Positions 19,680 to 37,960 of a stretch of DNA of 64,000 bases are shown here, in pieces. The stretch lies in the IMG/VR virus record IMGVR_UViG_3300028563_000009; one strand, 5' to 3'. Each line of letters opens with the position of its first letter. Position 1 is the first letter of the stretch. The DNA is from a virus (Duplodnaviria; Heunggongvirae; Uroviricota; Caudoviricetes). Made by a program: the position numbers and the translations under genes. Below the pieces are notes generated by a model. That model saw only the letters and a list, made by a program, of their open reading frames with translations. It was not told the DNA's origin and made no database searches.

Positions 19680-19753
19680 GGGTCATTAGCTCAATGCAGA
19701 GCAACGCCCTTTTAAGGCGGAGGTTCTAGGTTCAAACCCCAGATGACCCACCA
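19680..19753 (+). tRNA. tRNA-Lys (anticodon UUU), CCA encoded
   Basis: Acceptor GGGTCAT/ATGACCC, D-arm GCTC..GAGC, anticodon loop CTTTTAA, T-loop TTCAAAC (one stem mismatch). Confidence 0.65.
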
Positions 19754-19755
19754 CC

Positions 19756-19830
19756 GGGGCTATAGCTCAATGGCAGAGCAGGGGACTCATAATCCCTTGG
19801 TTCTAGGTTCGAGTCCTAGTGGCCCCACCA
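19756..19830 (+). tRNA. tRNA-Met (anticodon CAU), CCA encoded
   Basis: Acceptor GGGGCTA/TGGCCCC, D-loop AATGGCA, anticodon loop CTCATAA, T-arm CTAGG-TTCGAGT-CCTAG. Confidence 0.8.
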
Positions 19831-25234: not shown

Positions 25235-26188
25235 ATGGGCGGTGGTAGTTGGGATACACATTCATACACGTCTAATGCGGCAGACCGTAAGGCCAACAAA
25301 GTAGACGACTTCGCATACACACGCAGCGCAACCAAGGTTCACAAGAATCTCGATCCGCTGAGGATCAACAAGAAGGCAGATTCGAAACTGGAGTCTAGGG
25401 ATAGCAAGGAACATCCTAACTCGACGCCGGTTCTGATTAGCTTCGATGTGACTGGCAGCAATATCAACAGGGCTGTCGTGGCTCAGAAGAAGCTTCCGGC
25501 TCTGATGGACCTTCTCAAGAAGTATCTTCCGGATGCTCAGGTGGCATTCGCGGCTAACGATGATTACAAGGTGGAAGGCACCAATAGCATCCAGATTTCT
25601 GAGTTCGAGTCTGACAACAGAGCGGACGACCATCTTAGAAAGATTTGGTTGGTTGGGAACGGTGGCGGGAATTCGCAAGAGAGCTATGAGTTGATTCTGT
25701 ACGCGGCTGCTAGAAAGGTTTCTCTAGACTCCATCGACAAACGCGGTAAAAAAGGATACCTGTTCATGTATGCCGACGAGCGCATTCCTACTTCTGTCCT
25801 CAAGGGAGAAGTAAAGGATGTTTTCGGTGACGCACTGGAAGCAGATATTCCGGTTAAGGAAATCATCGAGGAAGCGCAACGCAACTTCAATGTGTTCCTT
25901 CTCTGGCCCCACGGTGGATACATTCCCGATGCGCGTGCTCAGTATGAAAAACTGTTCGGGGAAGACAACGTGATTACCCTCGAAGACCCAAGTCTTATTT
26001 GCGAAGTCATCGCAAGTACCATCGGGTTGTTCGAAGATCGCGCTACTCCTGCCTCGCTGGTTACTGACCTCGTTGCGGTTGGAGTGAGCGACAAGGACGC
26101 TAAGGCAGTCTCTAAGTCCCTCAAGAAGATTGAGAAGGGTGAGGAGTTAGCGGTAGCGGGTGGCGGAAAGAAGGCGAAGAGAGTATGA
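25235..26188 (+). CDS. von Willebrand factor A (vWA) domain protein (317 aa)
   Basis: MIDAS-like FDVTGS .. Lys-rich tail. Confidence 0.55.
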   Translation: MGGGSWDTHSYTSNAADRKANKVDDFAYTRSATKVHKNLDPLRINKKADSKLESRDSKEHPNSTPVLISFDVTGSNINRAVVAQKKLPALMDLLKKYLPDAQVAFAANDDYKVEGTNSIQISEFESDNRADDHLRKIWLVGNGGGNSQESYELILYAAARKVSLDSIDKRGKKGYLFMYADERIPTSVLKGEVKDVFGDALEADIPVKEIIEEAQRNFNVFLLWPHGGYIPDARAQYEKLFGEDNVITLEDPSLICEVIASTIGLFEDRATPASLVTDLVAVGVSDKDAKAVSKSLKKIEKGEELAVAGGGKKAKRV

Positions 26189-27201
26189 AGCAATACATAG
26201 GAATCGCTAGAGATCATTCCGGTTCCATGAGTAGTCTCAAGACTACGGCCACTTCGGACTACAATTCGAATGTGGAAAGTATTAAAGAGGGTGCCACTGA
26301 CCACGGTATTGACACTGTGGTCAGTGTTATCAAGTTCGGGGTAAGAGCGGCGACTGGTATTGAGTTCGAGGTTAAGAACTCAAGCGTGAATAGCCTTAAG
26401 AAACTAACCTCGTACGAGACGTATGGCTCTACTCCCTTGTTCGATAGTGTTGGAGAACTTATTGAGCAGTTGTCGAAAGTTCCAGATGCGGAAGACCCGG
26501 ATGTTTCATTCCTTATCATGGTGATTACGGATGGAGCGGAAAACTCAAGCCGGAATTACAATGGCAACAGTATCTCTAAGAAAATAAAGGAGTTGCAGAA
26601 CACCGATAAGTGGTCATTTGTGTTTCGCGTTCCTCAAGGGTACGGCCATAACCTTTCTCGACTTGGGATTCCAGAGGGGAATATCCTCGAATGGGAGCAA
26701 ACCAAACAAGGTTTTGAGAAGGCAACGCAGAGAACCAAGGAAGCGGTGACGCGATTCTATGCCGCTAGAGCCAGTGGGCAAAGACGTACTACCAGTTTCT
26801 ACTCCGATCTTAGCCAAGTATCGGTTAAAGAAGTGGAAAGAGAGTTGGTAGAAATTACCAAGCAAGTATCTTTTTGGTCGGTCCGAAAGAACTCTTCCGT
26901 GCGAGATTTTGTGGAAGACCACATCGGCGGGGGAATGATAATTGGAGCAGCCTTCTACCAGTTAACTAAACCCGAGAAGCTTCAGAGCTATAAGCTTATC
27001 TGTATTCGTAACAAGGCAACAGGAGAAGTTTTCTCCGGCGATGCCGCGAGAGATTTGCTCAACCTTCCTAGAGGGGGAGAGATTAAACTTCAACCGGGAG
27101 ACCACGGGAAGTTCGACGTGTTTATCCAGAGCACCAGCACAAATCGGAAGTTATTACCCAATACAGAGCTATTGTATTGGCCGAAAGTGAGGAGTCTTTA
27201 A
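26185..27201 (+). CDS. vWA domain protein (338 aa)
   Basis: IARDHSGSM (DxSGS MIDAS), ITDGAEN. Confidence 0.6.
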   Translation: MKQYIGIARDHSGSMSSLKTTATSDYNSNVESIKEGATDHGIDTVVSVIKFGVRAATGIEFEVKNSSVNSLKKLTSYETYGSTPLFDSVGELIEQLSKVPDAEDPDVSFLIMVITDGAENSSRNYNGNSISKKIKELQNTDKWSFVFRVPQGYGHNLSRLGIPEGNILEWEQTKQGFEKATQRTKEAVTRFYAARASGQRRTTSFYSDLSQVSVKEVERELVEITKQVSFWSVRKNSSVRDFVEDHIGGGMIIGAAFYQLTKPEKLQSYKLICIRNKATGEVFSGDAARDLLNLPRGGEIKLQPGDHGKFDVFIQSTSTNRKLLPNTELLYWPKVRSL

Positions 27202-27202
27202 G

Positions 27203-27424
27203 ATGAGCAGGCTAACTTTACAGAAAAGAAAGGACCCCCGAGACGACCAAGATACTTGGGGGTTCATGCTGGGAGACCTATTCTACGCCTTCTCGGACTT
27301 CGGAGGAAGCACCAGTAAGGAATTAGCTACTATAGGTCTGGACTGGATTAAACAGGGATACGGGAATCCTTTCGACGGAGAGGACCCTAATAACTACGGA
27401 CCAGTGTTGGAGGAGATAGAATAG
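27203..27424 (+). CDS. hypothetical protein (73 aa)
   Basis: Coupled start. Confidence 0.45.
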   Translation: MSRLTLQKRKDPRDDQDTWGFMLGDLFYAFSDFGGSTSKELATIGLDWIKQGYGNPFDGEDPNNYGPVLEEIE

Positions 27425-28566
27425 TGAAGGCAATCCTGCTTCAGGGTATGGCGTTCGGCGACGAGAGCAAAGGCGCGACAGTCGATGCTCTTTGTCGTAA
27501 GTTCCCTGTGGATCAGATAGTTCGGTATAATGGCGGTCCACAGACGGCCCATAACGTAGTAACACCACAAGGAGTACATCACACTTTCAGCCAGTTCGGG
27601 TCTGGAATGCTAGCTAACTCTACTGTTAAGACACACTTATCTCGTTTCATGTTGATTAACCCGTTTAGTATGATGAGGGAAGCCGCCGCGTTGCCTACCT
27701 ATACTCCGGTCTGGAACCGAGTTACCATAGACAGACAGTGCGTAGTCATCACTCCAATGCACAAAAGGCTTAATCAGTTAAGAGAGAAGGCAAGACGGGA
27801 AGGTGCCCACGGAAGTTGTGGGGTCGGTGTAGGGGTTGCCAGAGAACTCAGCCTGAGGTATGGTGATAGAGTGTTGTTAGTGGAAGACTTCGCGGACGAA
27901 AACAGAATCCACATGAAGCTATTGTTCATGTTCTCGCAGTTAGGTTTCGAGATAGACAGGCTACAGAGAGAACTGAAGATTCCGGATATGGACTTTGATT
28001 TCGAGCACATGGCCCGTGCTTACAAAGATTTCGGAAGTTACGCAAAAGTCGTTGACAAACTGGAGCCGAGTGACTTAATGTTGTTTGAAGGCGCTCAGGG
28101 CGTCCTGTTGGATGAGCGGAAGGAATTCCTGCCACACAACACTTGGACAAACTGCACCTTCGGAAACGCAGACAACCTCTTGTCAGAAGTCGGATGCAGT
28201 GATAGATTAAGGATTGGGTGCTTCAGATCGTACTTCACGAGGCACGGCCACGGGCCATTCCCAACGGAAGACGTGGACTTGACAAAATCCTTTAAGGAAG
28301 CGCATAATGGAACCGGAGAGTTTCAGGGTGCTTTTAGGTGTGGTAAATTTGATTTTGATTTAGCCAAAAAAGCACTTGACATTGTTGGCGGTTTGGATTA
28401 TCTTTCTATTAGTCACTTGGATCGGGCCTCGTTAGAAGTGGGCGATGAAATTTCAAGCACTCTAGGAGTTCCGGTAGGAGTCTGGGCCACGGGTCCCACA
28501 TCAAACCACCGTGGTTTTAACTGTGAGTTGATCGACAGACTTGACAAGGTTTTGGAAACGTGTTAA
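27424..28566 (+). CDS. adenylosuccinate synthetase (PurA) family enzyme, PurZ candidate (380 aa, GTG start)
   Basis: GDESKGATVD P-loop region, RYNGGPQTAHNV, AHGSCGVGVGVARE; GGAGGAG RBS. Confidence 0.65.
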   Translation: MKAILLQGMAFGDESKGATVDALCRKFPVDQIVRYNGGPQTAHNVVTPQGVHHTFSQFGSGMLANSTVKTHLSRFMLINPFSMMREAAALPTYTPVWNRVTIDRQCVVITPMHKRLNQLREKARREGAHGSCGVGVGVARELSLRYGDRVLLVEDFADENRIHMKLLFMFSQLGFEIDRLQRELKIPDMDFDFEHMARAYKDFGSYAKVVDKLEPSDLMLFEGAQGVLLDERKEFLPHNTWTNCTFGNADNLLSEVGCSDRLRIGCFRSYFTRHGHGPFPTEDVDLTKSFKEAHNGTGEFQGAFRCGKFDFDLAKKALDIVGGLDYLSISHLDRASLEVGDEISSTLGVPVGVWATGPTSNHRGFNCELIDRLDKVLETC

Positions 28567-28578
28567 AATGGATTTGGG

Positions 28579-28866
28579 AATAGCGTTAGAAACAGTTACT
28601 TCTCATGCTTAATGAATTGCCGAAAGGCAGTCTCTGTTTCGCTTGTTCTTTCCCATATTTGAAGTTCTAGGTAGTGTAGATACAGTTACTTCGGTTAAAG
28701 TAGCTTCGGCTATGAGAGGTTTCGACGCCTCACCTTCTTTCGAGAAGGGTTACTGTGTCGCTTGTGCTCCTAGATGTTTTAAGGTTCTAGGTAGTGAAGA
28801 CCACGGTTACTTCTTTGGTGATAAACACCGTATGTCGCTTATTCTCCTAGATAAGATTAGCCTAGT
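28579..28866 (+). repeat. three tandem imperfect repeat units (R1-R3): conserved flanks GTAGTGTAGAnACAGTTACTTC / CTGTnTCGCTTGTTCT..TTCTAG bracketing variable hairpin inserts
   Basis: Direct reading; flank segments AAACAG/CTGTTT, ATACAG/CTGTGT co-vary; UUCG tetraloop hairpins in R2 insert. Confidence 0.7.
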
Positions 28867-29083
28867 TCGCAAGAGCGCGAGTCGGCAAACCCCCGGGAAC
28901 CCTTGATTTCGAATATATAGGGGCAACAAGGCAATGGTATGCGACAGTGGCTAAAACAGGGGCATTATACGGGTAGCTCCCGTGCCCCGAAGGTTGTAGG
29001 GTGGCAGAGAGTATTAGAATTGCGGGTCCTGTTACGGACTCAACGCTGGCGACGAATCTCCAGCCCCTACTAAAATTCAGTAG

Positions 29084-29217
29084 CAGTAGTGTTGAAACAA
29101 TTCCTTCTTCCAAACCGTAGGTCATGGGTTCGAATCCCATCTATCAGGGTTTCGATAGTAGCTCAGTTGGTAGAGCAACAGTACAAGGTGTTTCGCTCGT
29201 TCTCTGCTATAATCTGG
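29084..29217 (+). ncRNA. repeat unit R5 carrying tRNA-like module (T-arm ATGGG-TTCGAAT-CCCAT, acceptor-like hairpin CTATC/GATAG, D-arm TAGCTCAGTTGGTAGAGCA)
   Basis: Module at 29124-29177; flanks TGAAACA / TGTTTCG complementary. Confidence 0.4.
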
Positions 29218-29339
29218 TAACGGGTTTCACCGGTCGTGGCGGAGTCGTTAAAGAGAACAAAAACGGGAATGACTCTAACCGGTAAAGTGACCACGAATTT
29301 GCTTGCCGCCTAGAGCGTGATTATGTTGCCAATTTTTTA

Positions 29340-29476
29340 GGTATAGTGTTAGATACAGTTACTTCAATGCTAATGAAGAAACGTCGGTTCGAATCCGACT
29401 CCCGGTGTGTGCCGGGATCGTCTAGGGGTTAGGACGCTAAAATATCTGTGTCGCTTGTTCTTACCTAAGTTCTAAG
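29340..29476 (+). ncRNA. repeat unit R4 carrying complete but circularly permuted tRNA-like cloverleaf (AC arm, T-arm, acc-3', 5-nt loop, acc-5', D-arm)
   Basis: 29362-29436: CTTCA-ATGCTAA-TGAAG, GTCGG-TTCGAAT-CCGAC, TCCCGGT/GCCGGGA, GTCT-AGGGGTTA-GGAC. Confidence 0.4.
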
Positions 29477-29480
29477 AAAT

Positions 29481-29660
29481 ATGAGAATAACCCAGTGTTG
29501 TTTAGCATTTACGTCGGCTGTGGCGTTAGTAGTTGCCGCAATAGCGTCCAAACCACAAGGACTATCGAGTCCTTTAGAAGCATTAGGATTCTTGGTTTTG
29601 CTTGGAAACGTGGCGATACAAGTTTTTGGCGTCGTCATCGCAGTACACGAACTGGAGTAG
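29481..29660 (+). CDS. small membrane protein (59 aa)
   Basis: Weak RBS; hydrophobic. Confidence 0.3.
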   Translation: MRITQCCLAFTSAVALVVAAIASKPQGLSSPLEALGFLVLLGNVAIQVFGVVIAVHELE

Positions 29661-29661
29661 T

Positions 29662-30021
29662 ATGGGTATAAAAGACCTACTTGAAAATGAAATGAAGGCC
29701 AGCCACGAGTTTTCTAAAAGTAACTTTGGTGCTCAGGTGGGAGCGGCATACCCAGAGTTAGTAAAAGAAGTTTCTTCTAGCGATCCCGTATGCGCGACGT
29801 TGATGGTCGAATTGTGTATTGCTGGCATTACTGGAAAACAGGTAGCGGACAGTCTTAAGAAGCATAATGACTCAAAGGATTTACAGAAAGCTATCCTTGA
29901 GAATCTTCCCTCGTTTAACGGGCAGTTGTCCATGCTATACTGGGGTATCAACATAGGGCGTAAACTGGAAAAAGAAAGCCTCGAAGTTAACAAGCTTGAG
30001 GAAATGTTTGGAGGGAAATGA
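29662..30021 (+). CDS. hypothetical protein (119 aa)
   Basis: GGAG RBS; ATGA coupling to next gene. Confidence 0.45.
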   Translation: MGIKDLLENEMKASHEFSKSNFGAQVGAAYPELVKEVSSSDPVCATLMVELCIAGITGKQVADSLKKHNDSKDLQKAILENLPSFNGQLSMLYWGINIGRKLEKESLEVNKLEEMFGGK

Positions 30022-31385
30022 AAACCAATACTGCAATTAAGACCCCCGCTCCGAAGACGCACGAAGGTGCCACGGCAGCGCGTATCAATCCTGAGCAACA
30101 GCTTCGTCGTGTTGTTCTAGCATCCATGTTGTTTGAAGACACCTTCTATTTGGACGGAGTTAGCTCTGCCCAGATCGTTGAAGACTCGGTTCAGGAAGTT
30201 CTTAAGAAAAAGAATGGCCCTCAAATCGTGTCCGATCTGGCATACGAAACCCGTACTAACGGTAAACTGCGCCATATCCCGTTGTTCTTGGCCCTGACTC
30301 TTGTTAGAGCAGGCAACAAAAATACCAAACTCGGCGAGGAATGCCGTGCCGTGGTTGCGGAAACGCTGACCAAGATCATCCAGCGTCCGGACGAACTGGC
30401 GGAGTTTTTAGCTCTGTACTGGAAGGACAAGAAAGTTCCTTTGTCCAATCAGGTTAAGAAAGGACTCGCTGCTGCGTTCCAAAAGTTTGACAGGTACTCT
30501 CTGTCGAAGTACGCGAACCGGGAAGGCTCTATCTCTCTGCGCGACGTGTTGTTCTTGGTACACCCGCGTCCTCTGAACTCCGATCAACAGGAGTTGTGGA
30601 ACGAGTTGGCCGAGAAGAAATTGGTTGCTCCGGATACTTGGGAGTCGAATCTGTCTGCTGGTGCGGATAAGAAAGAGACTTTCATTCGTCTGATCGAAGA
30701 GAAGAAGCTGGGTGCTTTGGCACTACTCCGCAACTTGCGTAACATGCAACAGGCGGGAGTCCCGGATGATACCATCCGCAAAGCTTTGTCCGAAATGAAG
30801 ACCGAACGTGTTCTTCCTTTCCGGTATATCTCTGCCGCTAACTACGCTCCGCAACTGGAGCCTGAGTTGGAACAGGCCATGTATCGTAGCCTTAAGGATC
30901 ACGAGAAGCTGTCCGGCAAGACCGTTCTGTTGGTGGACAATTCTGGAAGCATGGGTTCTCCCGTTTCCGGAAGATCGCAAATCAGCAGAGCCGATGCCGC
31001 TCAAGCACTGGCAATGTTGGTCCGTGAGATCAGCGAAACCAGCGAAGTGATTGTGTTTGGTACGACGGCTGGAAGCATTCCTCCCCGTAGAGGATTTGCT
31101 CTCCGCGATGCTGTCAGACATAGCCAACACGGAGGCGGGACTAACACGGAAGTTGCTAAGAAACTAGCAGATAAAGTTGGATACGACAGACTCATCATCT
31201 TCACCGATGAACAGTCGCATCAGGCTCTCTCTGCTCCTAAGGAAGGCTCCAAGGCTTACGTCATCAATGTGGCCGCATACCAGAACGGAGTTGGGTATGG
31301 GAAGTGGGTTCATATTGACGGGTTCTCGGAAGCTGCGGTAGACTTTATCCAGCAGTATGAGAAAGAGAAAAATGAGCTTGCTTAA
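30018..31385 (+). CDS. rsr: Ro60/Rsr orthologue (TROVE domain + C-terminal vWA), 455 aa
   Basis: LRHIPLFLALTLVRAG, ALLRNLRNM (TROVE-like), C-terminal LLVDNSGSMGS (MIDAS) .. IIFTDEQSH. Confidence 0.6.
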   Translation: MKTNTAIKTPAPKTHEGATAARINPEQQLRRVVLASMLFEDTFYLDGVSSAQIVEDSVQEVLKKKNGPQIVSDLAYETRTNGKLRHIPLFLALTLVRAGNKNTKLGEECRAVVAETLTKIIQRPDELAEFLALYWKDKKVPLSNQVKKGLAAAFQKFDRYSLSKYANREGSISLRDVLFLVHPRPLNSDQQELWNELAEKKLVAPDTWESNLSAGADKKETFIRLIEEKKLGALALLRNLRNMQQAGVPDDTIRKALSEMKTERVLPFRYISAANYAPQLEPELEQAMYRSLKDHEKLSGKTVLLVDNSGSMGSPVSGRSQISRADAAQALAMLVREISETSEVIVFGTTAGSIPPRRGFALRDAVRHSQHGGGTNTEVAKKLADKVGYDRLIIFTDEQSHQALSAPKEGSKAYVINVAAYQNGVGYGKWVHIDGFSEAAVDFIQQYEKEKNELA

Positions 31386-31578
31386 AATACTGGCGGGTCT
31401 CTCGTGGGTCGTAATTGGTTTTTACGTCCTACAAGGGGCCTTCTGGCTTATGACCTACCCGAGCGACTTTACTTTCTTGGGCGGTATACTCTCGGTATTC
31501 CTTTACGGCTTTGTAACCTTCAAAATGATACAATACGCAGTAAGAAAATTCTTTAAGGAGAATAATGAACCTCGTTAA
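31372..31578 (+). CDS. small two-TM membrane protein (68 aa)
   Basis: Upstream partner of SPFH gene. Confidence 0.4.
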   Translation: MSLLKILAGLSWVVIGFYVLQGAFWLMTYPSDFTFLGGILSVFLYGFVTFKMIQYAVRKFFKENNEPR

Positions 31579-32461
31579 GTTGGCTCTGGCAGGATTCCTA
31601 ATGACTTTCCTCGCCGGTTGCGGAGTAGATAGAATTGGACCCGGCCACGTCGGTATTAAGATCAACATGGCTGGCGATAACAAAGGTGTGCTGGATACAC
31701 CAGTGAGTACGGGATGGGTGTTTTATAACCCCCTCGGCACCACGGTGATCGAGTACCCAACCAACATGAAGAATGTAGTGTGGACTAAAAGCCTCGATGA
31801 AGGCAACGCGAAGGACGAAAGCATTACGTTCACCAACAAAGAGAGCATGGTGGTTAACGCCGACTTCTCTCTGAACTACTACCTACTTCCTGAGAAGGTT
31901 CCGGCCTTTTATGTGAAGTTTCTCCAGAGGGATTTGGACGATTTCAGCAACGGGTACCTTCGTACCATCGCAAGAAATTGCGTGAACGACAGTGCTGGTA
32001 AGTATGAGATCGCACAGATCATGGGGGACAACACTGCCTTCCTGCTAGATAGTAAGGCATGTATTAACAAAACTCTCACGTCTTATGGTATCTTTGTCGA
32101 TAGCTTTGGCTTGATTGGTGCTCCGCGTCCTCCTCCGGTGGTAATCGAAAACATCAACGCCAAGATTCAGGCGCAACAGATCGCTCTCCAGAAGCAGAAC
32201 GAACTCCTTCAGGTTCAGGCAGATGCCGCGAAACAGGTGGCCGCTGCTGAAGGTAAGGCTAAGTCTATGGTCACTGAGGCCAACGGAGAAGCGGAAGCTA
32301 ACCGTATCAGAGCAGCTAGCATTACCCCGGCTATCATCCAGAAGCTTTCTCTGGAGAACCAGCACGACGCTATCTGGCGTTGGGATGGACACATGCCAAC
32401 CACTGTAGCCAACGGCGATAAGGGGGGACTGTTGTTCAACATCCCTACGGACAGTAAGTAA
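31565..32461 (+). CDS. SPFH/band-7 domain lipoprotein (298 aa)
   Basis: Lipobox FLAGCG; SPFH core plus coiled-coil QAQQIALQKQNELLQVQADAAKQ. Confidence 0.55.
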   Translation: MNLVKLALAGFLMTFLAGCGVDRIGPGHVGIKINMAGDNKGVLDTPVSTGWVFYNPLGTTVIEYPTNMKNVVWTKSLDEGNAKDESITFTNKESMVVNADFSLNYYLLPEKVPAFYVKFLQRDLDDFSNGYLRTIARNCVNDSAGKYEIAQIMGDNTAFLLDSKACINKTLTSYGIFVDSFGLIGAPRPPPVVIENINAKIQAQQIALQKQNELLQVQADAAKQVAAAEGKAKSMVTEANGEAEANRIRAASITPAIIQKLSLENQHDAIWRWDGHMPTTVANGDKGGLLFNIPTDSK

Positions 32462-32847
32462 TGGGTATTGAAGAAGTAGTAGAAAAAACAGTAACCATGA
32501 GCTTTGAGGATTTTGGGTACTTGTCCAAGACTCAAAGATTCTGGGACGAACAAGCTGAGTGGTCCCGAGCCACGTTTGGTAGCGATACCGAGCGTGGCCC
32601 ACTCGGACCTCTAAAGCATCTAGAGAAGGAAACCGAGGAAGCACGGCAGTCTTGGATTAAGCAAGACATTCCGGAAGCTAAGGTTGAGATCGCTGATTGT
32701 CTTTTCCTTACATTCGATGCGGCACGTAGAGCAGGCATGTCTTTAGACGACCTTCTAGACACAGCTTTCCGGAAACTGGAAATTAACAAACAACGCGAGT
32801 GGCAGAAACCAACGAACGACGGGCCAGTGGAGCATGTGAGGGAATGA
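32461..32847 (+). CDS. MazG-like nucleotide pyrophosphohydrolase (128 aa)
   Basis: LKHLEKETEEA .. EIADCLFLTFDAARRAGMSLDDLLDTAFRKLEINKQR (EExxE..ExxD). Confidence 0.55.
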   Translation: MGIEEVVEKTVTMSFEDFGYLSKTQRFWDEQAEWSRATFGSDTERGPLGPLKHLEKETEEARQSWIKQDIPEAKVEIADCLFLTFDAARRAGMSLDDLLDTAFRKLEINKQREWQKPTNDGPVEHVRE

Positions 32848-33233: not shown

Positions 33234-34241
33234 ATGAAAAACATATATCGCTGTGAATTCGGAAGTCATCTGTACGGTACTAATACGGAGGCTTCCGATC
33301 ACGATTTTAAGTCGATCCATATCCCATCCTCGGAGCAGATTCTACTTCAGAGGGTTCAGGATAGTACCGGCCATGTCGTGAAGAGGGAAGAAGGGGATAG
33401 AAACACCAAGGACGATACTGATGACGAAAGTTACTCCCTTCAGAGATATTTATCTCTTCTAGCCGAAGGGCAGACCGTAGCTATCGATATGTTGTTCGTC
33501 CCTAAACCTCTGATTACAAGTGAAATATGGGAAGAAATCGTTGCGAACAAGGACAGGCTGGTCACTAAGAAGTCTTATTCCTTCGTGGGGTATTGTCGCA
33601 CTCAGGCCAATAAGTATGGTATAAAGGGTAGTAGGGTGTCAGCGGCTAAAGAGGCTATGGACTTCTTCGAGGAGGCAATTACTTTCAAAGGGCCGTTGGC
33701 TAAAGTAGGTGACTTGGGTTTGTTCCCCGCTGGAGAACACTCTCACACGGTGGTCAAGGAAACCACTCCCGGAAAGTTTGAGACGTACTTCGAGTGCTGC
33801 AATCGTATGGTAGGATATAAGAACACTCTCAAGGAAGCGCACCATATCTTTTCCCGCATCTACGAGGAGTACGGCAAGAGAGCCAAGCTGGCCGAGTCCA
33901 ACAATGGGATCGACTGGAAGGCTTTGAGTCACGCAGTAAGGGTAGGACATGAGGCTTTGGCTTTGTTATCAACTGGCGAAATTTCTTTTCCGTTGTTTAA
34001 CGCACCGCATTTACTTGATATTAAAAAGGGCAGACTCCCCTACAAGGAAGTTGCTCAAGAAATAGAAGAGTTGCTGGAGGACGTGGAAGCGGCCTCTAAA
34101 ACATCCCCGCTCCGGAAAGAGCCGGACTACAAGTACATCGATGGGTTGGTAAGGAGAGTTTATGGTAGAGAAGTTTTTAACGATTACTGTTTGGACAGTA
34201 CTTACCACAATGGCGTATGCTCTGTTGCAGGGGAGGTTTAA
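33234..34241 (+). CDS. Pol-beta superfamily nucleotidyltransferase (335 aa)
   Basis: GSHLYGTNTEASDHDF (GS-x9-DhD) plus downstream Asp. Confidence 0.5.
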   Translation: MKNIYRCEFGSHLYGTNTEASDHDFKSIHIPSSEQILLQRVQDSTGHVVKREEGDRNTKDDTDDESYSLQRYLSLLAEGQTVAIDMLFVPKPLITSEIWEEIVANKDRLVTKKSYSFVGYCRTQANKYGIKGSRVSAAKEAMDFFEEAITFKGPLAKVGDLGLFPAGEHSHTVVKETTPGKFETYFECCNRMVGYKNTLKEAHHIFSRIYEEYGKRAKLAESNNGIDWKALSHAVRVGHEALALLSTGEISFPLFNAPHLLDIKKGRLPYKEVAQEIEELLEDVEAASKTSPLRKEPDYKYIDGLVRRVYGREVFNDYCLDSTYHNGVCSVAGEV

Positions 34242-34586: not shown

Positions 34587-34669
34587 GGCCGCGTGGTGAA
34601 ATCGGCAGACACACTTGCCTTAGGAGCAAGCGCGAAAGCATGGGGGTTCAAGTCCCTCCGTGGCCACCA
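34587..34669 (+). tRNA. tRNA-Leu (anticodon UAG), type II, CCA encoded
   Basis: Acceptor GGCCGCG/CGTGGCC, anticodon stem CTTGC/GCAAG loop CTTAGGA, long variable arm, T-loop TTCAAGT. Confidence 0.75.
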
Positions 34670-34671
34670 GT

Positions 34672-34763
34672 GCGCTAGTGGCGAAGCTGGTTGAAACGCA
34701 TCGGACTTAAAATCCGACACTGATAAGTTCACAACGGGGGTTCGAACCCCTCCTAGCGTACCA
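34672..34763 (+). tRNA. tRNA-Leu (anticodon UAA), type II, CCA encoded
   Basis: Acceptor GCGCTAG/CTAGCGT, anticodon stem TCGGA/TCCGA loop CTTAAAA, long variable arm, T-loop TTCGAAC. Confidence 0.7.
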
Positions 34764-35887: not shown

Positions 35888-37960
35888 GTGTACCTTTATT
35901 TAGACACAGAATTTAGATCAGAATTAGACCTTGAAGACGTTGGCCACTATAAGTATCTGAACCACACAAGTACAGAGCTTCTTATGGTGGCTTACGCTTT
36001 TGGGGATGAACCTATTAAGATTTGGGAAACCCATAAAGGCCCCATTCCAGAGGAGTTAAAGCAGGGTCTTGAGGACTACTTACAGATCATTGTTGCGTGG
36101 AACTCCGCCTTCGAGAGAATCGCTTTCCGTAGGCATTTAGGAATCAACATACCTCCTGAACGGTGGGAAGACCCGATGATCCGCTCTCGGTATATGTCTA
36201 TGCCGGGAAGGTTAGAAAAAGTCGGCAAGATTCTAGATATCAAGGCCAAGAAGGTCACGGAGTTCTTTGTTAAAGAACAATCCATGATAAGCCTCTTCTC
36301 TTTTCCTTTACGGATGGGAGGAGATATAACGCTATGGGGTTTAGAACCAACAACATACAGGGACTGGGACACCCACCCGAAAGAGTGGGCCGCGTTCTGT
36401 GACTACTGCAAGACCGACGTGGCCGCGATGCGGGAAATCTTGTATCGGTTAGAAAAGTTTCCACTTCCGGACTTCGAGTACGAGCTATTCGCGCTCAATG
36501 AGGAGATCAACGACTACGGGATATACACGGATAAGATGCTGATCGAAGGCGCAGGGATCGTCGTAGATCGGGAATTTGCCGCGCTAAAGAAGGAGTTCAC
36601 AGAGATCACGGGGTTAATAAACCCTCGTTCGAACAAGTCCGTTCTGTTCTTTGCTAGGCAGCATGGGTATACCTTCTCTTCCCTGAACAAGCAGTATGTT
36701 AACAGAGCATTAAAAGGTGAGTGTACTCTAGACGCTTTGGGCCGACGAGCGTTGGAGCTACGTCTACAACTCGGTAAGAGTAGCGTTAGCAAGCTTGAGG
36801 CGGTCCGTAGCGCCGTCGAAGATGATCGGAGGATACGTGGGCTGTTCAACTTCATGGGAGCGGCTAGAACAGGCCGCTGGACCTCGGGAATCGTGCAAGT
36901 ACAGAACCTTGTGAAGGCGTCTAAGGAAGTCGAAGCGAACTTCGATCTTGCCTTGGATTTGCTTAAGGCCGGGAATTACGAACGAATTAAGCAGGAGTTC
37001 AAGAGTCCTATCGACGTAGCGGCCTCAGCCATACGCCCGATGCTCCGCGCTCCTGAGGGTAAGAAGTTCATTATAGCGGACTTAAACGCCATCGAGACTA
37101 GGGGAGCAGCATGGGTTGCGGACTGCCAGCCTCTCATGGAAGTGTTTAGGCAGGGCAGATGCCCTTACATATCCTTTGCCGCCCAGATGGACCCATCCCG
37201 CAGCTATGATGAGTTATACAAGGAGTACAAAGCAGGCAACAAGACCACTCGTACTAACGCCAAGCCCCCTACCTTAGGGTGTGGGTACGGCCTTACTCCC
37301 GGCATCATCGATGTAGATGAGGATGGTAACACGGTTAAGACGGGTCTGTTGGGGTACGCTGCGGCTATGGGTATCGAACTCCTCCCTGAGTACGCAGAGA
37401 AAGCTGTGCAAGTTTACCGGAATGCCTACCGCGAGATACCTAAGTTCTGGTATGATTTACATGCGTGTGTAGTAGAAGTAATCGAGCACGGTGGGCTGGT
37501 ACAGATCGGCCCCCTTACCATCGAGAAGATTGGGAGGGTGTTGTGTGTTTGGCTTCCGTCCGGTAGAGCACTACACTACATCAACCCGAGAGTAAGGGAA
37601 GTAGAGAGGGTATCGCTACGCACTGGTAGACCCTACAAGACTACTGAGATTACTATTGAGGGGATAGATCAGAAGACCCACCAGTGGCAGGATATAACAA
37701 CCCACGGGTCTAAGATTTTCGAGAACGTTGTCCAAGCAATTTGCAGGGACATACTCGGTCATGGTATGCTGGAAGCGAAACGTGATGGCTTCCCCATCGT
37801 CCTAACCTGCCACGATGAGATTGTGGCAGAGGTCGAGAACGGTTCTCCGTTAGGGGTACCAGAGCTAGTAGACTGTATGACTAGGAAGATTAGTTGGGCC
37901 GGAGGGTTTCTAACCGGAGCGGAAGGCTTCGAGACGGATTACTACAGGAAGGATGGGTAA
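35888..37960 (+). CDS. family A DNA polymerase with 3'-5' exonuclease (690 aa, GTG)
   Basis: Exo I LDTEF; motif A ADLNAIETR; motif B KPPTLGCGYG; motif C CHDEI. Confidence 0.8.
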   Translation: MYLYLDTEFRSELDLEDVGHYKYLNHTSTELLMVAYAFGDEPIKIWETHKGPIPEELKQGLEDYLQIIVAWNSAFERIAFRRHLGINIPPERWEDPMIRSRYMSMPGRLEKVGKILDIKAKKVTEFFVKEQSMISLFSFPLRMGGDITLWGLEPTTYRDWDTHPKEWAAFCDYCKTDVAAMREILYRLEKFPLPDFEYELFALNEEINDYGIYTDKMLIEGAGIVVDREFAALKKEFTEITGLINPRSNKSVLFFARQHGYTFSSLNKQYVNRALKGECTLDALGRRALELRLQLGKSSVSKLEAVRSAVEDDRRIRGLFNFMGAARTGRWTSGIVQVQNLVKASKEVEANFDLALDLLKAGNYERIKQEFKSPIDVAASAIRPMLRAPEGKKFIIADLNAIETRGAAWVADCQPLMEVFRQGRCPYISFAAQMDPSRSYDELYKEYKAGNKTTRTNAKPPTLGCGYGLTPGIIDVDEDGNTVKTGLLGYAAAMGIELLPEYAEKAVQVYRNAYREIPKFWYDLHACVVEVIEHGGLVQIGPLTIEKIGRVLCVWLPSGRALHYINPRVREVERVSLRTGRPYKTTEITIEGIDQKTHQWQDITTHGSKIFENVVQAICRDILGHGMLEAKRDGFPIVLTCHDEIVAEVENGSPLGVPELVDCMTRKISWAGGFLTGAEGFETDYYRKDG

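What the first reader, a model, noticed from the sequence alone, without database searches (positions are those of the whole stretch)
28579..31385. Phage-encoded Ro60/Rsr orthologue preceded by an array of Y-RNA-like structured repeats
Gene 30018-31385 combines a TROVE-like N-terminal region (LRHIPLFLAL, LLRNLRNM) with a C-terminal vWA/MIDAS domain, the diagnostic Ro60 architecture. Immediately upstream lies ~900 bp with no convincing ORF but five imperfect repeat units with conserved 5' and 3' flanks and variable, hairpin-rich inserts. Cellular Ro60 partners with Y RNAs encoded next to rsr, and bacterial YrlA Y RNAs carry a tRNA-like module. This locus looks like an expanded Y-RNA array feeding a phage Ro60 RNP, which has hardly been described in phages.
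Basis: partly seen in the sequence, partly recalled or inferred. Interest (0 to 1): 0.85.

Follow-up and report, generated by a model that had tools for sequence, protein, structure and literature searches.

The report
Phage Ro60 gene with five Y-RNAs
A phage carries a Ro60-type RNA-binding protein gene preceded by five tandem small-RNA genes that share one protein-docking stem but carry different inner modules (two of them tRNA mimics); this kind of locus is already known in bacteria and a few phages, so it is a well-supported new example, not a new kind of system.

Summary
ORF 30018-31385 is a Ro60/Rsr-type protein: Pfam TROVE and Ro60-vWA are both above cut-off, and its best solved relative is Thermus phage phiLo Ro60.

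Upstream, after a strong sigma-70-like promoter (28541-28569), lie exactly five units. Each is closed by the same bipartite stem: variable outer helix, bulged U, R-Y and G-C pairs, conserved internal loop, second helix, then UUACUUC. Units 4 and 5 carry the T-arm / closed acceptor-like stem / D-arm module of YrlA-type Y RNAs. Units 1-3 carry only small hairpins.

A covariance model built only from other phage loci scores the five units at 95, 90, 42, 39 and 34 bits. Nothing else in the 64 kb scores comparably. The stem covaries across more than 100 units from about 60 related loci. Its 5' box occurs 194 times on the Ro60 strand and never on the other.

Such arrays of 1-5 units, about 8 in CcrColossus, are typical of this phage Ro60 clade. 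They are unannotated, or mis-called as tRNA, in GenBank. Phage Ro60 with Y RNAs was reported in 2014 and studied biochemically in 2025, so this is a new member of a known kind. Expression, processing and Ro60 binding remain untested.

The parts
28541..28569 (+). Sigma-70-type promoter-like site, TTGACA-17 nt-TAAAAT with TG. The predicted start at about 28576 coincides with the first base of unit 1's outer helix.
   Evidence: 11 of 12 hexamer matches. Similar TTGACA-type sites precede the arrays in L001, L005/L007, L099 and L101 (read).
28575..28655 (+). Unit 1, a short Y-RNA-like gene. Outer helix UGGGAA/UUCCCA, bulged U28581, A-U and G-C pairs, inner helix GAAACAG/CUGUUUC. The insert holds two small hairpins, one with a GAAA loop.
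   Evidence: MFE closes the stem, z=-2.9; R1, 37.7 bits; cognate 3' arm ranks first of 104; R2, 41.6 bits, E=3.8e-9.
28666..28774 (+). Unit 2, an intermediate Y-RNA-like gene. Outer helix UCUAGG/CCUAGA, inner helix GAUACAG/CUGUGUC. The insert has three hairpins; the middle one (GAGGUUUCGACGCCUC) looks like a degenerate T-arm. There is no D-arm.
   Evidence: rank 1; 34.3 bits, E=3.1e-7.
28786..28851 (+). Unit 3, the shortest Y-RNA-like gene. It carries the clade-typical GUAGUGAAG 5' motif. Its inner helix GACCACGG/CCGUAUGUC has a small internal loop.
   Evidence: R1, 40.9 bits; 39.0 bits, E=1.8e-8.
28852..29079 (+). Non-unit stretch inside the array, function unknown. No boxes, no ORF, no homologue. 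Positions 28997-29071 can be drawn as a cloverleaf-like fold, but no tRNA tool calls it.
   Evidence: fold z=-0.7, not significant. The closest relative, L020, has no equivalent.
29080..29210 (+). Unit 4, a long YrlA-type Y RNA. T-arm CAUGGGUUCGAAUCCCAUC, closed acceptor-like stem CUAUC...GAUAG, D-arm GUAGCUCAGUUGGUAGAGC. Closed by the common stem.
   Evidence: Rfam YrlA, 37.5 bits, E=3.4e-6, below GA 69; aligned with 23 homologues; arms covary; R2, 89.6 bits, E=9e-22.
29211..29335 (+). Second non-unit stretch inside the array, function unknown.
   Evidence: (z=-1.8), 32, 43, 73: no boxes and no homologues.
29336..29469 (+). Unit 5, a long YrlA-type Y RNA. V stem-loop CUUCA-AUGCUAA-UGAAG (5 bp, 7-nt anticodon-loop-like loop), T-arm GUCGGUUCGAAUCCGAC, acceptor-like stem CCCGG...CCGGG, D-arm CGUCUAGGGGUUAGGACG. 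Closed by the common stem.
   Evidence: (partial tRNA match, 24.1 bits), and 73 (R2, 95.1 bits, E=3.3e-23).
29481..29660 (+). Small ORF (59 aa, hydrophobic) between the array and Ro60. Whether it is coding is unverified.
   Evidence: No Pfam, NCBIfam or PHROG match. Found only in the identical contig L019.
29662..30021 (+). Small ORF (119 aa). Its stop overlaps the Ro60 start (ATGA). No known family.
30018..31385 (+). Ro60/Rsr-type protein: TROVE/HEAT ring region plus a C-terminal vWA domain with a DxSxS MIDAS motif.
   Evidence: homologues in 94 phage records; IMG/VR and metagenome relatives.

Best explanation
The region is a phage Ro60/Y-RNA module. I read it as one transcription unit starting at a host-type promoter (28541-28569). 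It encodes five tandem Y-RNA-like RNAs, two small ORFs and a Ro60 orthologue.

All five RNAs share one closing module. It consists of a sequence-variable outer helix, a bulged U, a covarying R-Y pair, an invariant G-C pair, and a conserved asymmetric internal loop (5' UG-WW-G, 3' CGCUUGUU). A second variable helix follows, then UUACUUC. I infer that this is the Ro60-docking site. Three observations support that. It is the only element common to all units. It sits where the Ro60 site sits in known Y RNAs. Its 5' strand in the clade consensus (GGUGAAG) resembles the GNCGAA(N)G motif of YrlA and the GGUCCGA contacted by Xenopus Ro60.

The interior of each unit is the variable effector module. Units 4 and 5 carry a circularly closed tRNA mimic (V arm, T-arm, closed acceptor-like stem, D-arm), as in YrlA. 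Units 1-3 carry only short hairpins, like YrlB.

The likely mechanism is by analogy with D. radiodurans, Salmonella and phage phiLo. The RNAs are cut out of a common precursor and each binds the phage Ro60 ring. They then act as interchangeable adaptors or gates. These would tether Ro60 to host partners: PNPase in a RYPER-like complex, and tRNA-elbow-binding enzymes for units 4 and 5. That would redirect structured-RNA decay or tRNA quality control and repair during infection.

Shown here: protein family, RNA family membership, secondary structure, co-orientation and conservation with Ro60. Inferred: transcription, processing, Ro60 binding, partners and biological role.
For: Protein:
- TROVE plus vWA_Ro60 above cut-offs.
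- Full-length similarity to the crystallised phage phiLo Ro60.
- PHROG 850.

RNA units:
- The five units are defined by repeats and by paired half-site HMM hits.
- Each folds with its 5' and 3' boxes paired.
- On 21 units, the outer bulged helix is 99.4% paired, 7 of its 8 pairs show double-sided changes, and the R-Y pair is AU:12 / GC:9 with none unpaired. The covariation score is 0.80 against 0.215 for shuffles (0 of 500 reach it) and 0.13-0.27 for slid controls.
- RNAalifold run on a plain MAFFT alignment of 25 long units independently recovers the outer helix, T-arm, AS stem and D-arm. 21 of 24 pairs have compensatory changes.
- In the partner test, the cognate 3' arm is the best of 104 for 41 units and in the top five for 70. 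Mean duplex energy is -18.0 against -11.1 kcal/mol.
- Model R2, built from 27 units of other loci only, scores the window units at 95.1, 89.6, 41.6, 39.0 and 34.3 bits. The next hit, 25.9 bits, is the tandem-tRNA artefact that Chen et al. 2014 predicted.
- Rfam YrlA gives sub-threshold hits at unit 4 and upstream of Ro60 in five relatives.

Association with Ro60:
- 5'-box hits above 8 bits number 194 on the Ro60 strand and 0 on the opposite strand in 584 kb. Almost all lie upstream of Ro60.
- 54 of 63 distinct loci have at least one unit and 42 have at least two.
- Flanking protein genes are not conserved with Ro60, whereas the array is.
- A promoter sits immediately before unit 1.

Literature:
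- YrlA lies near Ro60 on the same strand in bacteria and 22 phages, with the GNCGAA(N)G and YUAY motifs and the T-AS-D order (PMC4201824).
- phiLo Ro60 binds two upstream Y-like RNAs and forms a ternary complex with host PNPase (PMC12135203).
Against: - There are no expression data. Nothing shows that the units are released as discrete RNAs or that they bind this Ro60.
- No intrinsic terminator separates the array from the downstream ORFs in this window, although several relatives have one. The units could therefore stay part of a long leader.
- Rfam's curated YrlA threshold is not reached (37.5 against 69 bits). Unit 5 is not hit by that model at all.
- Four of the five window units have GUGUUAGA-type 5' motifs, not the GNCGAA(N)G or GUGAAG motif.
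- Two stretches inside the array (228 and 125 nt) are unexplained.
- The inner helix is only 73.5% paired in the hand-made alignment. I attribute that to register slips, but it is weaker evidence than for the outer helix.
- Many units come from related loci, so shuffle statistics overstate independence.
- No RNA ligase was seen in the ORFs I scanned, so any RNA-repair role is conjecture.
Confidence: 0.85

Rival explanations
1. The repeats are not stand-alone small RNAs. They are cis-acting structures in a long 5' leader of the Ro60 mRNA, for example autoregulatory Ro60-binding sites or stability elements that control expression of the downstream ORFs and Ro60.
For: No terminator-like hairpin lies between unit 5 and the downstream ORFs in this window. 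A single strong promoter precedes unit 1. The array and Ro60 are always co-oriented.
Against: In L001, L002, L003, L005 and L007 a terminator-like hairpin separates the array from the Ro60 ribosome-binding site (read). In L004 a separate gene lies between them, and in L008 units also lie downstream of Ro60. Each unit is an independently closed domain with its own covarying outer helix, as expected for excised RNAs. Homologous YrlA RNAs are discrete, Ro60-bound species in Salmonella and M. smegmatis (PMC4201824).
Confidence: 0.08
2. The units are decayed tRNA genes or tRNA pseudogenes left over from a phage tRNA array. They would have no relation to Ro60.
For: Relatives embed Ro60 in large tRNA arrays. 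Units 4 and 5 contain canonical T- and D-arm sequences. The Rfam tRNA model partly matches unit 5 at 24.1 bits. GenBank annotators called parts of homologous units tRNA-Thr and tRNA-Gln.
Against: ARAGORN finds no tRNA here, and the Rfam tRNA score is below its gathering score. The arm order is T, then a closed stem, then D, which is not a tRNA order. There is no free acceptor end. Three units have no T- or D-arm yet keep the same covarying closing stem. The boxes are conserved across loci whose Ro60 proteins are only about 41-67% identical to the query, and they occur only next to Ro60, which indicates selection and not decay.
Confidence: 0.03
3. The RNAs are made but act independently of Ro60. 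For example, they could be tRNA-elbow or anticodon-loop decoys that soak up host tRNA-targeting defence nucleases or tRNA-modifying enzymes.
For: Units 4 and 5 are close tRNA mimics. About half of the long units in the clade have a V stem-loop with a 5-bp stem and a 7-nt loop with U at position 2 and a purine at position 6, like an anticodon loop. An RlaP-type RNA-repair nucleotidyltransferase and tRNA genes lie within 3-5 kb.
Against: The strict linkage and co-orientation with Ro60 across about 60 loci, while all other neighbours vary, argues for a functional partnership. The element shared by all units is the closing stem and not the tRNA-like part. Short units have no tRNA-like features at all.
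Confidence: 0.07
4. The repeats function at the DNA level, as protein-binding iterons, recombination sites or a replication-related repeat.
For: They are tandem imperfect direct repeats in a non-coding stretch of a phage replication and nucleotide-metabolism region.
Against: Compensatory base changes that preserve pairing and the absolute strand bias of the boxes (194 against 0) indicate RNA-level selection. The content is recognisably YrlA-like.
Confidence: 0.02

Closest known systems
Bacterial Rsr (Ro60) with YrlA/YrlB Y RNAs (Salmonella Typhimurium, M. smegmatis; Rfam RF02553; Chen et al. 2014, PMC4201824; YrlA structure, bioRxiv 10.1101/312249)
   Same: A Ro60 orthologue with TROVE and vWA domains. 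The small RNAs are encoded within 4 kb on the same strand. A long 5'/3' closing stem carries a conserved purine-rich 5' motif. The tRNA-like module has the order V, T-arm, closed acceptor-like stem, D-arm. UUAC (the YUAY motif) begins the V region. A tRNA-like form (YrlA) coexists with shorter forms lacking it (YrlB).
   Different: The Rfam YrlA gathering score is not reached (37.5 against 69 bits). The RNAs lie upstream of Ro60, whereas in Salmonella they are encoded 3' of it. There are five copies instead of one or two. Both strands of the closing stem are conserved (5' URGUG..., 3' CGCUUGUUCY) with a bulged U, whereas only the 5' strand is recognisable in Salmonella and M. smegmatis. No rtcB/rtcA is adjacent. 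The protein is about 455 aa and scores only 20 bits on the NCBIfam Rsr equivalog model (cut-off 900).
Thermus phage phiLo Ro60 with Yrl1 and Yrl2 (PMC12135203; PDB 9KOP, 9L5Y)
   Same: A phage-encoded Ro60, and the closest solved relative (E=4.8e-27, full length). Its Y-like RNAs are encoded directly upstream. It is experimentally shown to bind them and to form a ternary complex with host PNPase.
   Different: phiLo has two RNAs, identified by a CGAA motif in an internal bulge; here there are five. I did not compare the phiLo RNA sequences with model R2. The host and environment differ.
Deinococcus radiodurans Rsr-Yrn1-PNPase (RYPER)
   Same: It supplies the mechanistic template: a Y RNA with a Ro60-binding stem conserved on both strands and a separate effector module that tethers Ro60 to an exoribonuclease.
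   Different: In Yrn1 the T- and D-like arms lie in a different orientation relative to the 5' end and the intervening stem-loop occupies the anticodon-arm position, so it is considered an independent lineage (PMC4201824). No PNPase link is shown for this phage.
RNA-repair gene neighbourhoods with Ro/TROVE, a Band-7 protein plus b7a-tRNA, RlaP and RNA ligases (Burroughs and Aravind 2016, as cited in 10.1101/312249, PMC7824862 and PMC12776372)
   Same: In the window, Ro60 is followed by a Band-7/SPFH gene (31565-32461). A PF10127 RlaP nucleotidyltransferase (33234-34241) and tRNA genes lie nearby. crAss001 also pairs TROVE with an SPFH gene.
   Different: No RtcB or Rnl ligase was found in the ORFs I scanned. 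The SPFH and RlaP neighbours are not conserved in the other Ro60 loci, so the link is suggestive only.

Membership tests
Ro60 / Rsr (TROVE-domain RNA-binding protein) | N-terminal TROVE (HEAT-repeat ring) domain | tested here: met
   Pfam PF05731, 59.3 bits against cut-off 23. Aligns over residues 11-448 with phiLo Ro60, 9KOP.
Ro60 / Rsr (TROVE-domain RNA-binding protein) | C-terminal vWA domain with a MIDAS motif | tested here: met
   PF25045 vWA_Ro60, 32.3 bits against cut-off 27.7. DxSxS (VDNSGSM, about residues 306-312) is aligned with VDVSGSM of phiLo Ro60.
Ro60 / Rsr (TROVE-domain RNA-binding protein) | Equivalog of bacterial Rsr by NCBI's curated model | tested here: not met
   NF041674, 20.2 bits against cut-off 900. 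It belongs to a divergent phage-type clade (PHROG 850, E=1.5e-55).
Ro60 / Rsr (TROVE-domain RNA-binding protein) | Ring-shaped fold that binds Y RNA on its outer surface | not tested
   No structure was predicted. The fold is inferred from full-length homology to a crystallised phage Ro60.
YrlA-type bacterial Y RNA (Rfam RF02553) | Score at or above Rfam's gathering threshold (69 bits) | tested here: not met
   Unit 4 scores 37.5 bits (E=3.4e-6 in a 1.7-kb search). Unit 5 is not reported by the YrlA model at all. Relatives score 30-49 bits.
YrlA-type bacterial Y RNA (Rfam RF02553) | Encoded within 4 kb of a Ro60 gene on the same strand | tested here: met
   The units lie about 550-1440 nt upstream on the + strand. 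The same holds in 54 of 63 related loci.
YrlA-type bacterial Y RNA (Rfam RF02553) | tRNA-like domain in the order T-arm, closed acceptor-like stem-loop, D-arm | tested here: met
   Units 4 and 5 only. RNAalifold on 25 homologues recovers all three arms with compensatory changes. R2 scores are 89.6 and 95.1 bits. Units 1-3 lack it.
YrlA-type bacterial Y RNA (Rfam RF02553) | GNCGAA(N0-1)G motif near the 5' end (putative Ro60 contact) and YUAY before the V region | tested here: inconclusive
   The clade consensus is (U/A)GGUGAAG or GUAGUGAAG, that is U in place of C. In the window only unit 3 has GUGAAG; the others have GUGUUAGA, GUGUAGA or GUGUUGA. UUAC (YUAY) is present in units 1, 2, 3 and 5, and is UUCC in unit 4.
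YrlA-type bacterial Y RNA (Rfam RF02553) | Bound by Ro60 in vivo; carries tRNA-type modifications | not testable with these tools
   This requires RIP, northern blots and modification mapping.
Metazoan-type Y RNA (Rfam RF00019) | Match to the Y_RNA covariance model | tested here: not met
   No hit at E<=10 in 28400-30100.
tRNA | Cloverleaf with an open acceptor stem, detected by ARAGORN or Rfam RF00005 | tested here: not met
   ARAGORN finds none in 28500-29700 at default or 80% thresholds. The Rfam tRNA model gives only a partial match at 24.1 bits, below 29.

The most novel reading that the evidence does not exclude
The array is a toolkit of interchangeable adaptors. One Ro60-docking stem is combined with different effector modules, so a single phage Ro60 ring can be directed to several targets or partners.

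The long units also preserve a near-complete permuted tRNA. It includes an anticodon-arm-like V stem-loop (5 bp, 7-nt loop of the form YU-NNN-RA, with different 'anticodons' in different phages). This has two implications:
- It is direct sequence support for the proposal that YrlA arose from a dimeric tRNA transcript.
- It could let the RNP sense, decoy or help repair the products of host anticodon nucleases. In that reading the RNP would work with the neighbouring RlaP nucleotidyltransferase, the Band-7 protein and the phage tRNAs as a counter-defence module.
Probability: 0.15. Interest if true: 0.75.

Novelty: new member of a known kind. Interest (0 to 1): 0.5.

Why it matters
Ro60/Y-RNA particles are conserved from bacteria to humans and are a major autoantigen, yet what Y RNAs do is still only partly understood.

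This phage clade offers a compact natural experiment. It has 1-5 Y RNAs per locus among the metagenomic relatives, and about 8 in CcrColossus. They share one docking stem, well defined by covariation and conserved on both strands, and they differ in their effector modules.

That gives three practical results:
- A precise, testable definition of the Ro60-binding element: the bulged U, the R-Y and G-C pairs, and the internal loop.
- Covariance models that find these RNAs where Rfam's YrlA threshold fails, and that correct 'tRNA' mis-annotations in cultured phages such as Xanthomonas phage 10KY502B and CcrColossus.
- Culturable systems (Xanthomonas, Caulobacter and Brevundimonas phages) in which to ask why phages carry Ro60.

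For this window alone the finding is a solid annotation, not a discovery of principle.

Tried and rejected
- **Rfam at gathering thresholds:** only five ordinary tRNAs elsewhere in the window, nothing in the region.
- **Model R1:** built from stem-only constructs with an artificial GAAA loop. It found only the two units with short inserts, because long inserts are penalised. I replaced it with half-site HMMs and model R2.
- **The two non-unit stretches (28852-29079 and 29211-29335):** no Rfam hit at E<=10. No tRNA at sensible ARAGORN thresholds; at 60-80% thresholds it returns implausible intron-containing tRNAs and a 'permuted tmRNA', which I discounted. No similarity to any related locus. 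Fold energies are not different from shuffles. They remain unexplained.
- **A near-identical phage genome:** none in the phage collection. The only 100% match is a 2.2-kb metagenome contig, so the spacers cannot be tested by comparison. The closest relative, at 67% protein identity, lacks them.
- **2-aminoadenine (Z-base) genome:** suggested by the PurA-like gene, the PF04447 dATP/dGTP pyrophosphohydrolase-like gene and the PolA-type polymerase. The PurA-like protein scores better on PurA models (130 bits) than on the PurZ model (35.9 bits), both far below cut-off. PDB hits are ordinary PurA. This is left open.
- **Conserved protein partners of Ro60:** none is shared with relatives except a MazG-like gene in L020.
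- **Supplementary tables of Chen et al. 2014:** not held. I could not check which phages, or how many RNAs per phage, were already listed.
- **Two Wolin-lab reviews:** not available.

Full report
**1. What is in the sequence**

The window reads as phage DNA. Nearly all genes are on the + strand. They include a family-A DNA polymerase, a primase-helicase, a UvrD-type helicase, a ribonucleotide reductase, a phage lysozyme, an integrase and five tRNA genes. Relatives of the central gene are found in IMG/VR viral contigs.

ORF 30018-31385 (455 aa) matches Pfam TROVE (59.3 bits) and the Ro60-specific vWA domain (32.3 bits), both above their curated cut-offs. It also matches PHROG 850 'RNA-binding protein' at E=1.5e-55. 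Its best solved relative is the Ro60 of Thermus phage phiLo (9KOP/9L5Y), E=4.8e-27 across residues 11-448. That alignment includes the MIDAS DxSxS motif. The protein does not reach NCBI's equivalog model for bacterial Rsr (20 against 900 bits). It is therefore a divergent, phage-type Ro60. Homologues occur in 94 phage GenBank records, with best identity 48%.

**2. The repeats**

The stretch 28575-29469 has no convincing ORF.

The five units, with the ends of their outer helices, are:
- Unit 1: 28575-28655
- Unit 2: 28666-28774
- Unit 3: 28786-28851
- Unit 4: 29080-29210
- Unit 5: 29336-29469

Each unit, folded alone, pairs its 5' box with its 3' box. The common architecture, read, is as follows:
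- a sequence-variable outer helix of 5-7 bp;
- a bulged U;
- an A-U or G-C pair, then an invariant G-C pair;
- a conserved asymmetric internal loop (5' UG-WW-G, 3' CGCUUGUU);
- a second variable helix of about 7 bp;
- UUACUUC, and then a variable insert.

A strong sigma-70-like promoter lies at 28541-28569 (TTGACA-17-TAAAAT with TG, 11 of 12 matches). It would start transcription at the first base of unit 1.

Stretches of 228 nt (28852-29079) and 125 nt (29211-29335) inside the array are not units. In addition, about 540 nt holding two small ORFs (29481-29660, and 29662-30021, whose stop overlaps the Ro60 start) separate the array from Ro60.

**3. Are the units Y-RNA-like?**

Units 4 and 5 contain, in this order, a T-arm (GGUUCGAAUCC loop region), a closed stem-loop and a D-arm. 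That is the permuted tRNA-like module that defines YrlA (PMC4201824; 10.1101/312249).

Rfam's YrlA model hits unit 4 at 37.5 bits (E=3.4e-6 in the local search), well below its gathering score of 69. Unit 5 gives only a partial tRNA match. ARAGORN calls no tRNA here.

The same sub-threshold YrlA hits occur upstream of Ro60, on the same strand, in five IMG/VR relatives. Reading those upstream regions showed that they all carry arrays of the same boxed units.

**4. Tests of structure and specificity**

(a) I used 21 stem constructs: five from the window and 16 from five other loci. The outer bulged helix is 99.4% paired, and 7 of its 8 pairs change on both sides. The pair next to the bulged U is A-U in 12 units and G-C in 9, and is never unpaired. 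The covariation score is 0.80. Shuffles give 0.215 (0 of 500 reach the observed value) and slid controls give 0.13-0.27. The inner helix is 73.5% paired in that alignment. I attribute the shortfall to register slips, for example in unit 3.

(b) RNAalifold was run on a plain MAFFT alignment of 25 long units. It independently predicts the outer helix, T-arm, closed stem and D-arm. 21 of 24 pairs have compensatory changes.

(c) HMMs of the 5' and 3' boxes were searched over 99 sources (584 kb). They give 194 5'-box hits above 8 bits on the Ro60 strand and none on the other strand. Almost all lie upstream of Ro60. In the window they find only the five units.

(d) In a partner test on 104 units, the cognate 3' arm is the best duplex partner of its 5' arm in 41 cases and is in the top five in 70. 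Mean energy is -18.0 against -11.1 kcal/mol. Four of the five window units rank first.

(e) Covariance model R2 was built from 27 long units of other loci only, with no window sequence. With filters off over the whole window it scores unit 5 at 95.1 bits, unit 4 at 89.6, and units 1, 3 and 2 at 41.6, 39.0 and 34.3 bits. The next hit, at 25.9 bits, is the junction of two adjacent tRNA genes. That is exactly the false positive Chen et al. 2014 warned of. E-values from this model are rough, but the bit-score gap is large.

Many units come from related loci, so the shuffle statistics overstate independence. The strand asymmetry, the slid controls and the held-out model do not depend on that.

**5. 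How typical is it?**

Across 63 distinct related loci with at least 700 nt upstream, the number of units is distributed as follows:

| Units per locus | Loci |
|---|---|
| 0 | 9 |
| 1 | 12 |
| 2 | 14 |
| 3 | 18 |
| 4 | 8 |
| 5 | 2 |

This tally does not include the window's own five units. The window was deduplicated against L019, a truncated copy of the same locus.

I collected 107 distinct units. They fall into two size classes. Short units of about 65-90 nt have no tRNA-like part. Long units of about 125-148 nt have T- and D-arms.

Cultured phages show the same pattern. Xanthomonas phage 10KY502B has five units, one of them annotated 'tRNA-Thr'. Caulobacter phage CcrColossus has about eight units in 1.2 kb, one overlapping an annotated 'tRNA-Gln'. 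None of the records annotates a Y RNA.

The flanking protein genes of the window are not conserved next to Ro60 in relatives. The conserved module is therefore Ro60 plus its RNA array, often set within tRNA gene clusters.

**6. Mechanism**

Shown: protein family, RNA family, secondary structure, and linkage.

Inferred: the shared stem is the Ro60-docking site. Three points support this:
- It is the only element common to all units.
- It occupies the position of the Ro60 site in known Y RNAs.
- Its 5' strand in the clade consensus (GGUGAAG) resembles the YrlA motif GNCGAA(N)G and the vertebrate GGUCCGA (PMC4201824).

Both strands are conserved here, as in D. radiodurans and metazoan Y RNAs.

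The variable interiors would be effector modules. The analogies are the D. radiodurans Rsr-Y RNA-PNPase machine, and phage phiLo, whose Ro60 binds two upstream Y-like RNAs and forms a ternary complex with host PNPase (PMC12135203). By those analogies, the RNAs are most likely excised from a common transcript and loaded on the phage Ro60. They would then tether or gate it, redirecting structured-RNA decay or tRNA quality control during infection.

The neighbourhood is reminiscent of described RNA-repair gene sets (10.1101/312249; PMC7824862; PMC12776372). It includes a Band-7/SPFH gene directly after Ro60, an RlaP nucleotidyltransferase at 33234-34241, and tRNA genes. However, no ligase was found, and these neighbours are not conserved.

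**7. Rivals**

- A purely cis-regulatory leader cannot be excluded for this window, because no terminator follows unit 5. It is disfavoured because relatives have terminators or genes between the array and Ro60, and because each unit closes on itself.
- tRNA pseudogenes are contradicted by the arm order and by the boxed short units.
- DNA-level repeats are contradicted by the compensatory changes and the strand bias.

**8. Novelty**

Phage Ro60 with adjacent YrlA-like RNAs was reported for 22 phages in 2014 (PMC4201824). One such system was characterised structurally in 2025 (PMC12135203). The locus is therefore a new member of a known kind.

Some features are not described in the texts I could read:
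- the clade-wide tandem arrays that mix long and short forms;
- the precisely defined, two-stranded docking stem with a bulged U;
- the anticodon-arm-like V stem-loop in about half of the long units. This fits the proposal that YrlA derives from a dimeric tRNA (10.1101/312249).

I could not see the 2014 supplementary tables, so some of this may already be listed there.

Noticed in passing
window 28997-29071 (within the 28852-29079 spacer): This sequence can be drawn as a cloverleaf: a 6-bp acceptor-like stem, a 4-bp D-like stem, a 6-bp stem with the 6-nt loop UGUUAC, and a 5-bp T-like stem with the loop CGACGAAUCU. ARAGORN and Rfam do not call it. The fold energy of the whole spacer is not different from shuffles, and no homologue was found.
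   Followed up: partly
window 29481-29660 and 29662-30021: Two small ORFs lie between the array and Ro60: a 59-aa hydrophobic one, and a 119-aa one whose stop overlaps the Ro60 start codon (ATGA). Neither has a Pfam, NCBIfam or PHROG match, and neither has a counterpart in related loci.
   Followed up: partly
window 27424-28566, 32461-32847, 35888-37960: A short PurA-like adenylosuccinate synthetase (380 aa; PHROG 1211), a PF04447 dATP/dGTP pyrophosphohydrolase-like protein and a family-A polymerase occur together. That combination recalls the 2-aminoadenine (Z-base) gene set. However, the PurA-like protein scores 130 bits on PurA models against 35.9 on the PurZ model, both far below cut-off, so the question is open.
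   Followed up: partly
window 31565-32461 and 33234-34241; tRNA-Leu genes at 34587-34763: A Band-7/SPFH gene directly follows Ro60, and an RlaP (PF10127) RNA-repair nucleotidyltransferase sits just before two tRNA-Leu genes. Ro60, Band-7 and RlaP are all components of described RNA-repair neighbourhoods. No RNA ligase was seen, and the neighbours are not conserved in relatives.
   Followed up: partly
L008, L012 and L030, positions 1081-1356: There is a bacterial class A RNase P RNA match (126.8 bits, above the gathering score of 100, only 276 nt long) inside a large tRNA gene array on a viral contig that also carries Ro60 and Y-like units. It may be a phage-encoded minimal RNase P RNA.
   Followed up: no
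L099 (Xanthomonas phage 10KY502B, OQ622092.1) 2331-2398; L101 (CcrColossus, JX100810.1) 1664-1731: The features annotated tRNA-Thr and tRNA-Gln in GenBank lie inside boxed YrlA-like units (L099 2327-2462; L101 1655-1826). They are probably mis-annotations. The 5' half of these units looks enough like a tRNA to fool tRNA finders.
   Followed up: partly
window 19709-19790: The junction of the adjacent tRNA-Lys and tRNA-Met genes scores 25.9 bits with the long-unit model. The T-arm of the first tRNA plus the D-arm of the second mimic YrlA. This is the dimeric-tRNA false positive noted by Chen et al. 2014, and it illustrates the proposed dimeric-tRNA origin of YrlA.
   Followed up: yes
L102 (Bacteroides phage crAss001) 3850-4756: An unannotated gap of about 900 nt lies downstream of the TROVE gene, and an SPFH gene lies about 2.3 kb further on. 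The box HMMs give only very weak hits there (about 5 bits). If crAss-like phages have Y RNAs, they are of a different type.
   Followed up: no
window 25235-27201: Two adjacent genes lie upstream of the PurA-like gene. One has a weak vWA match (26185-27201, PF00092, E=3.7e-4). Both belong to PHROGs of unknown function. Any relation to the Ro60 vWA domain is unknown.
   Followed up: no
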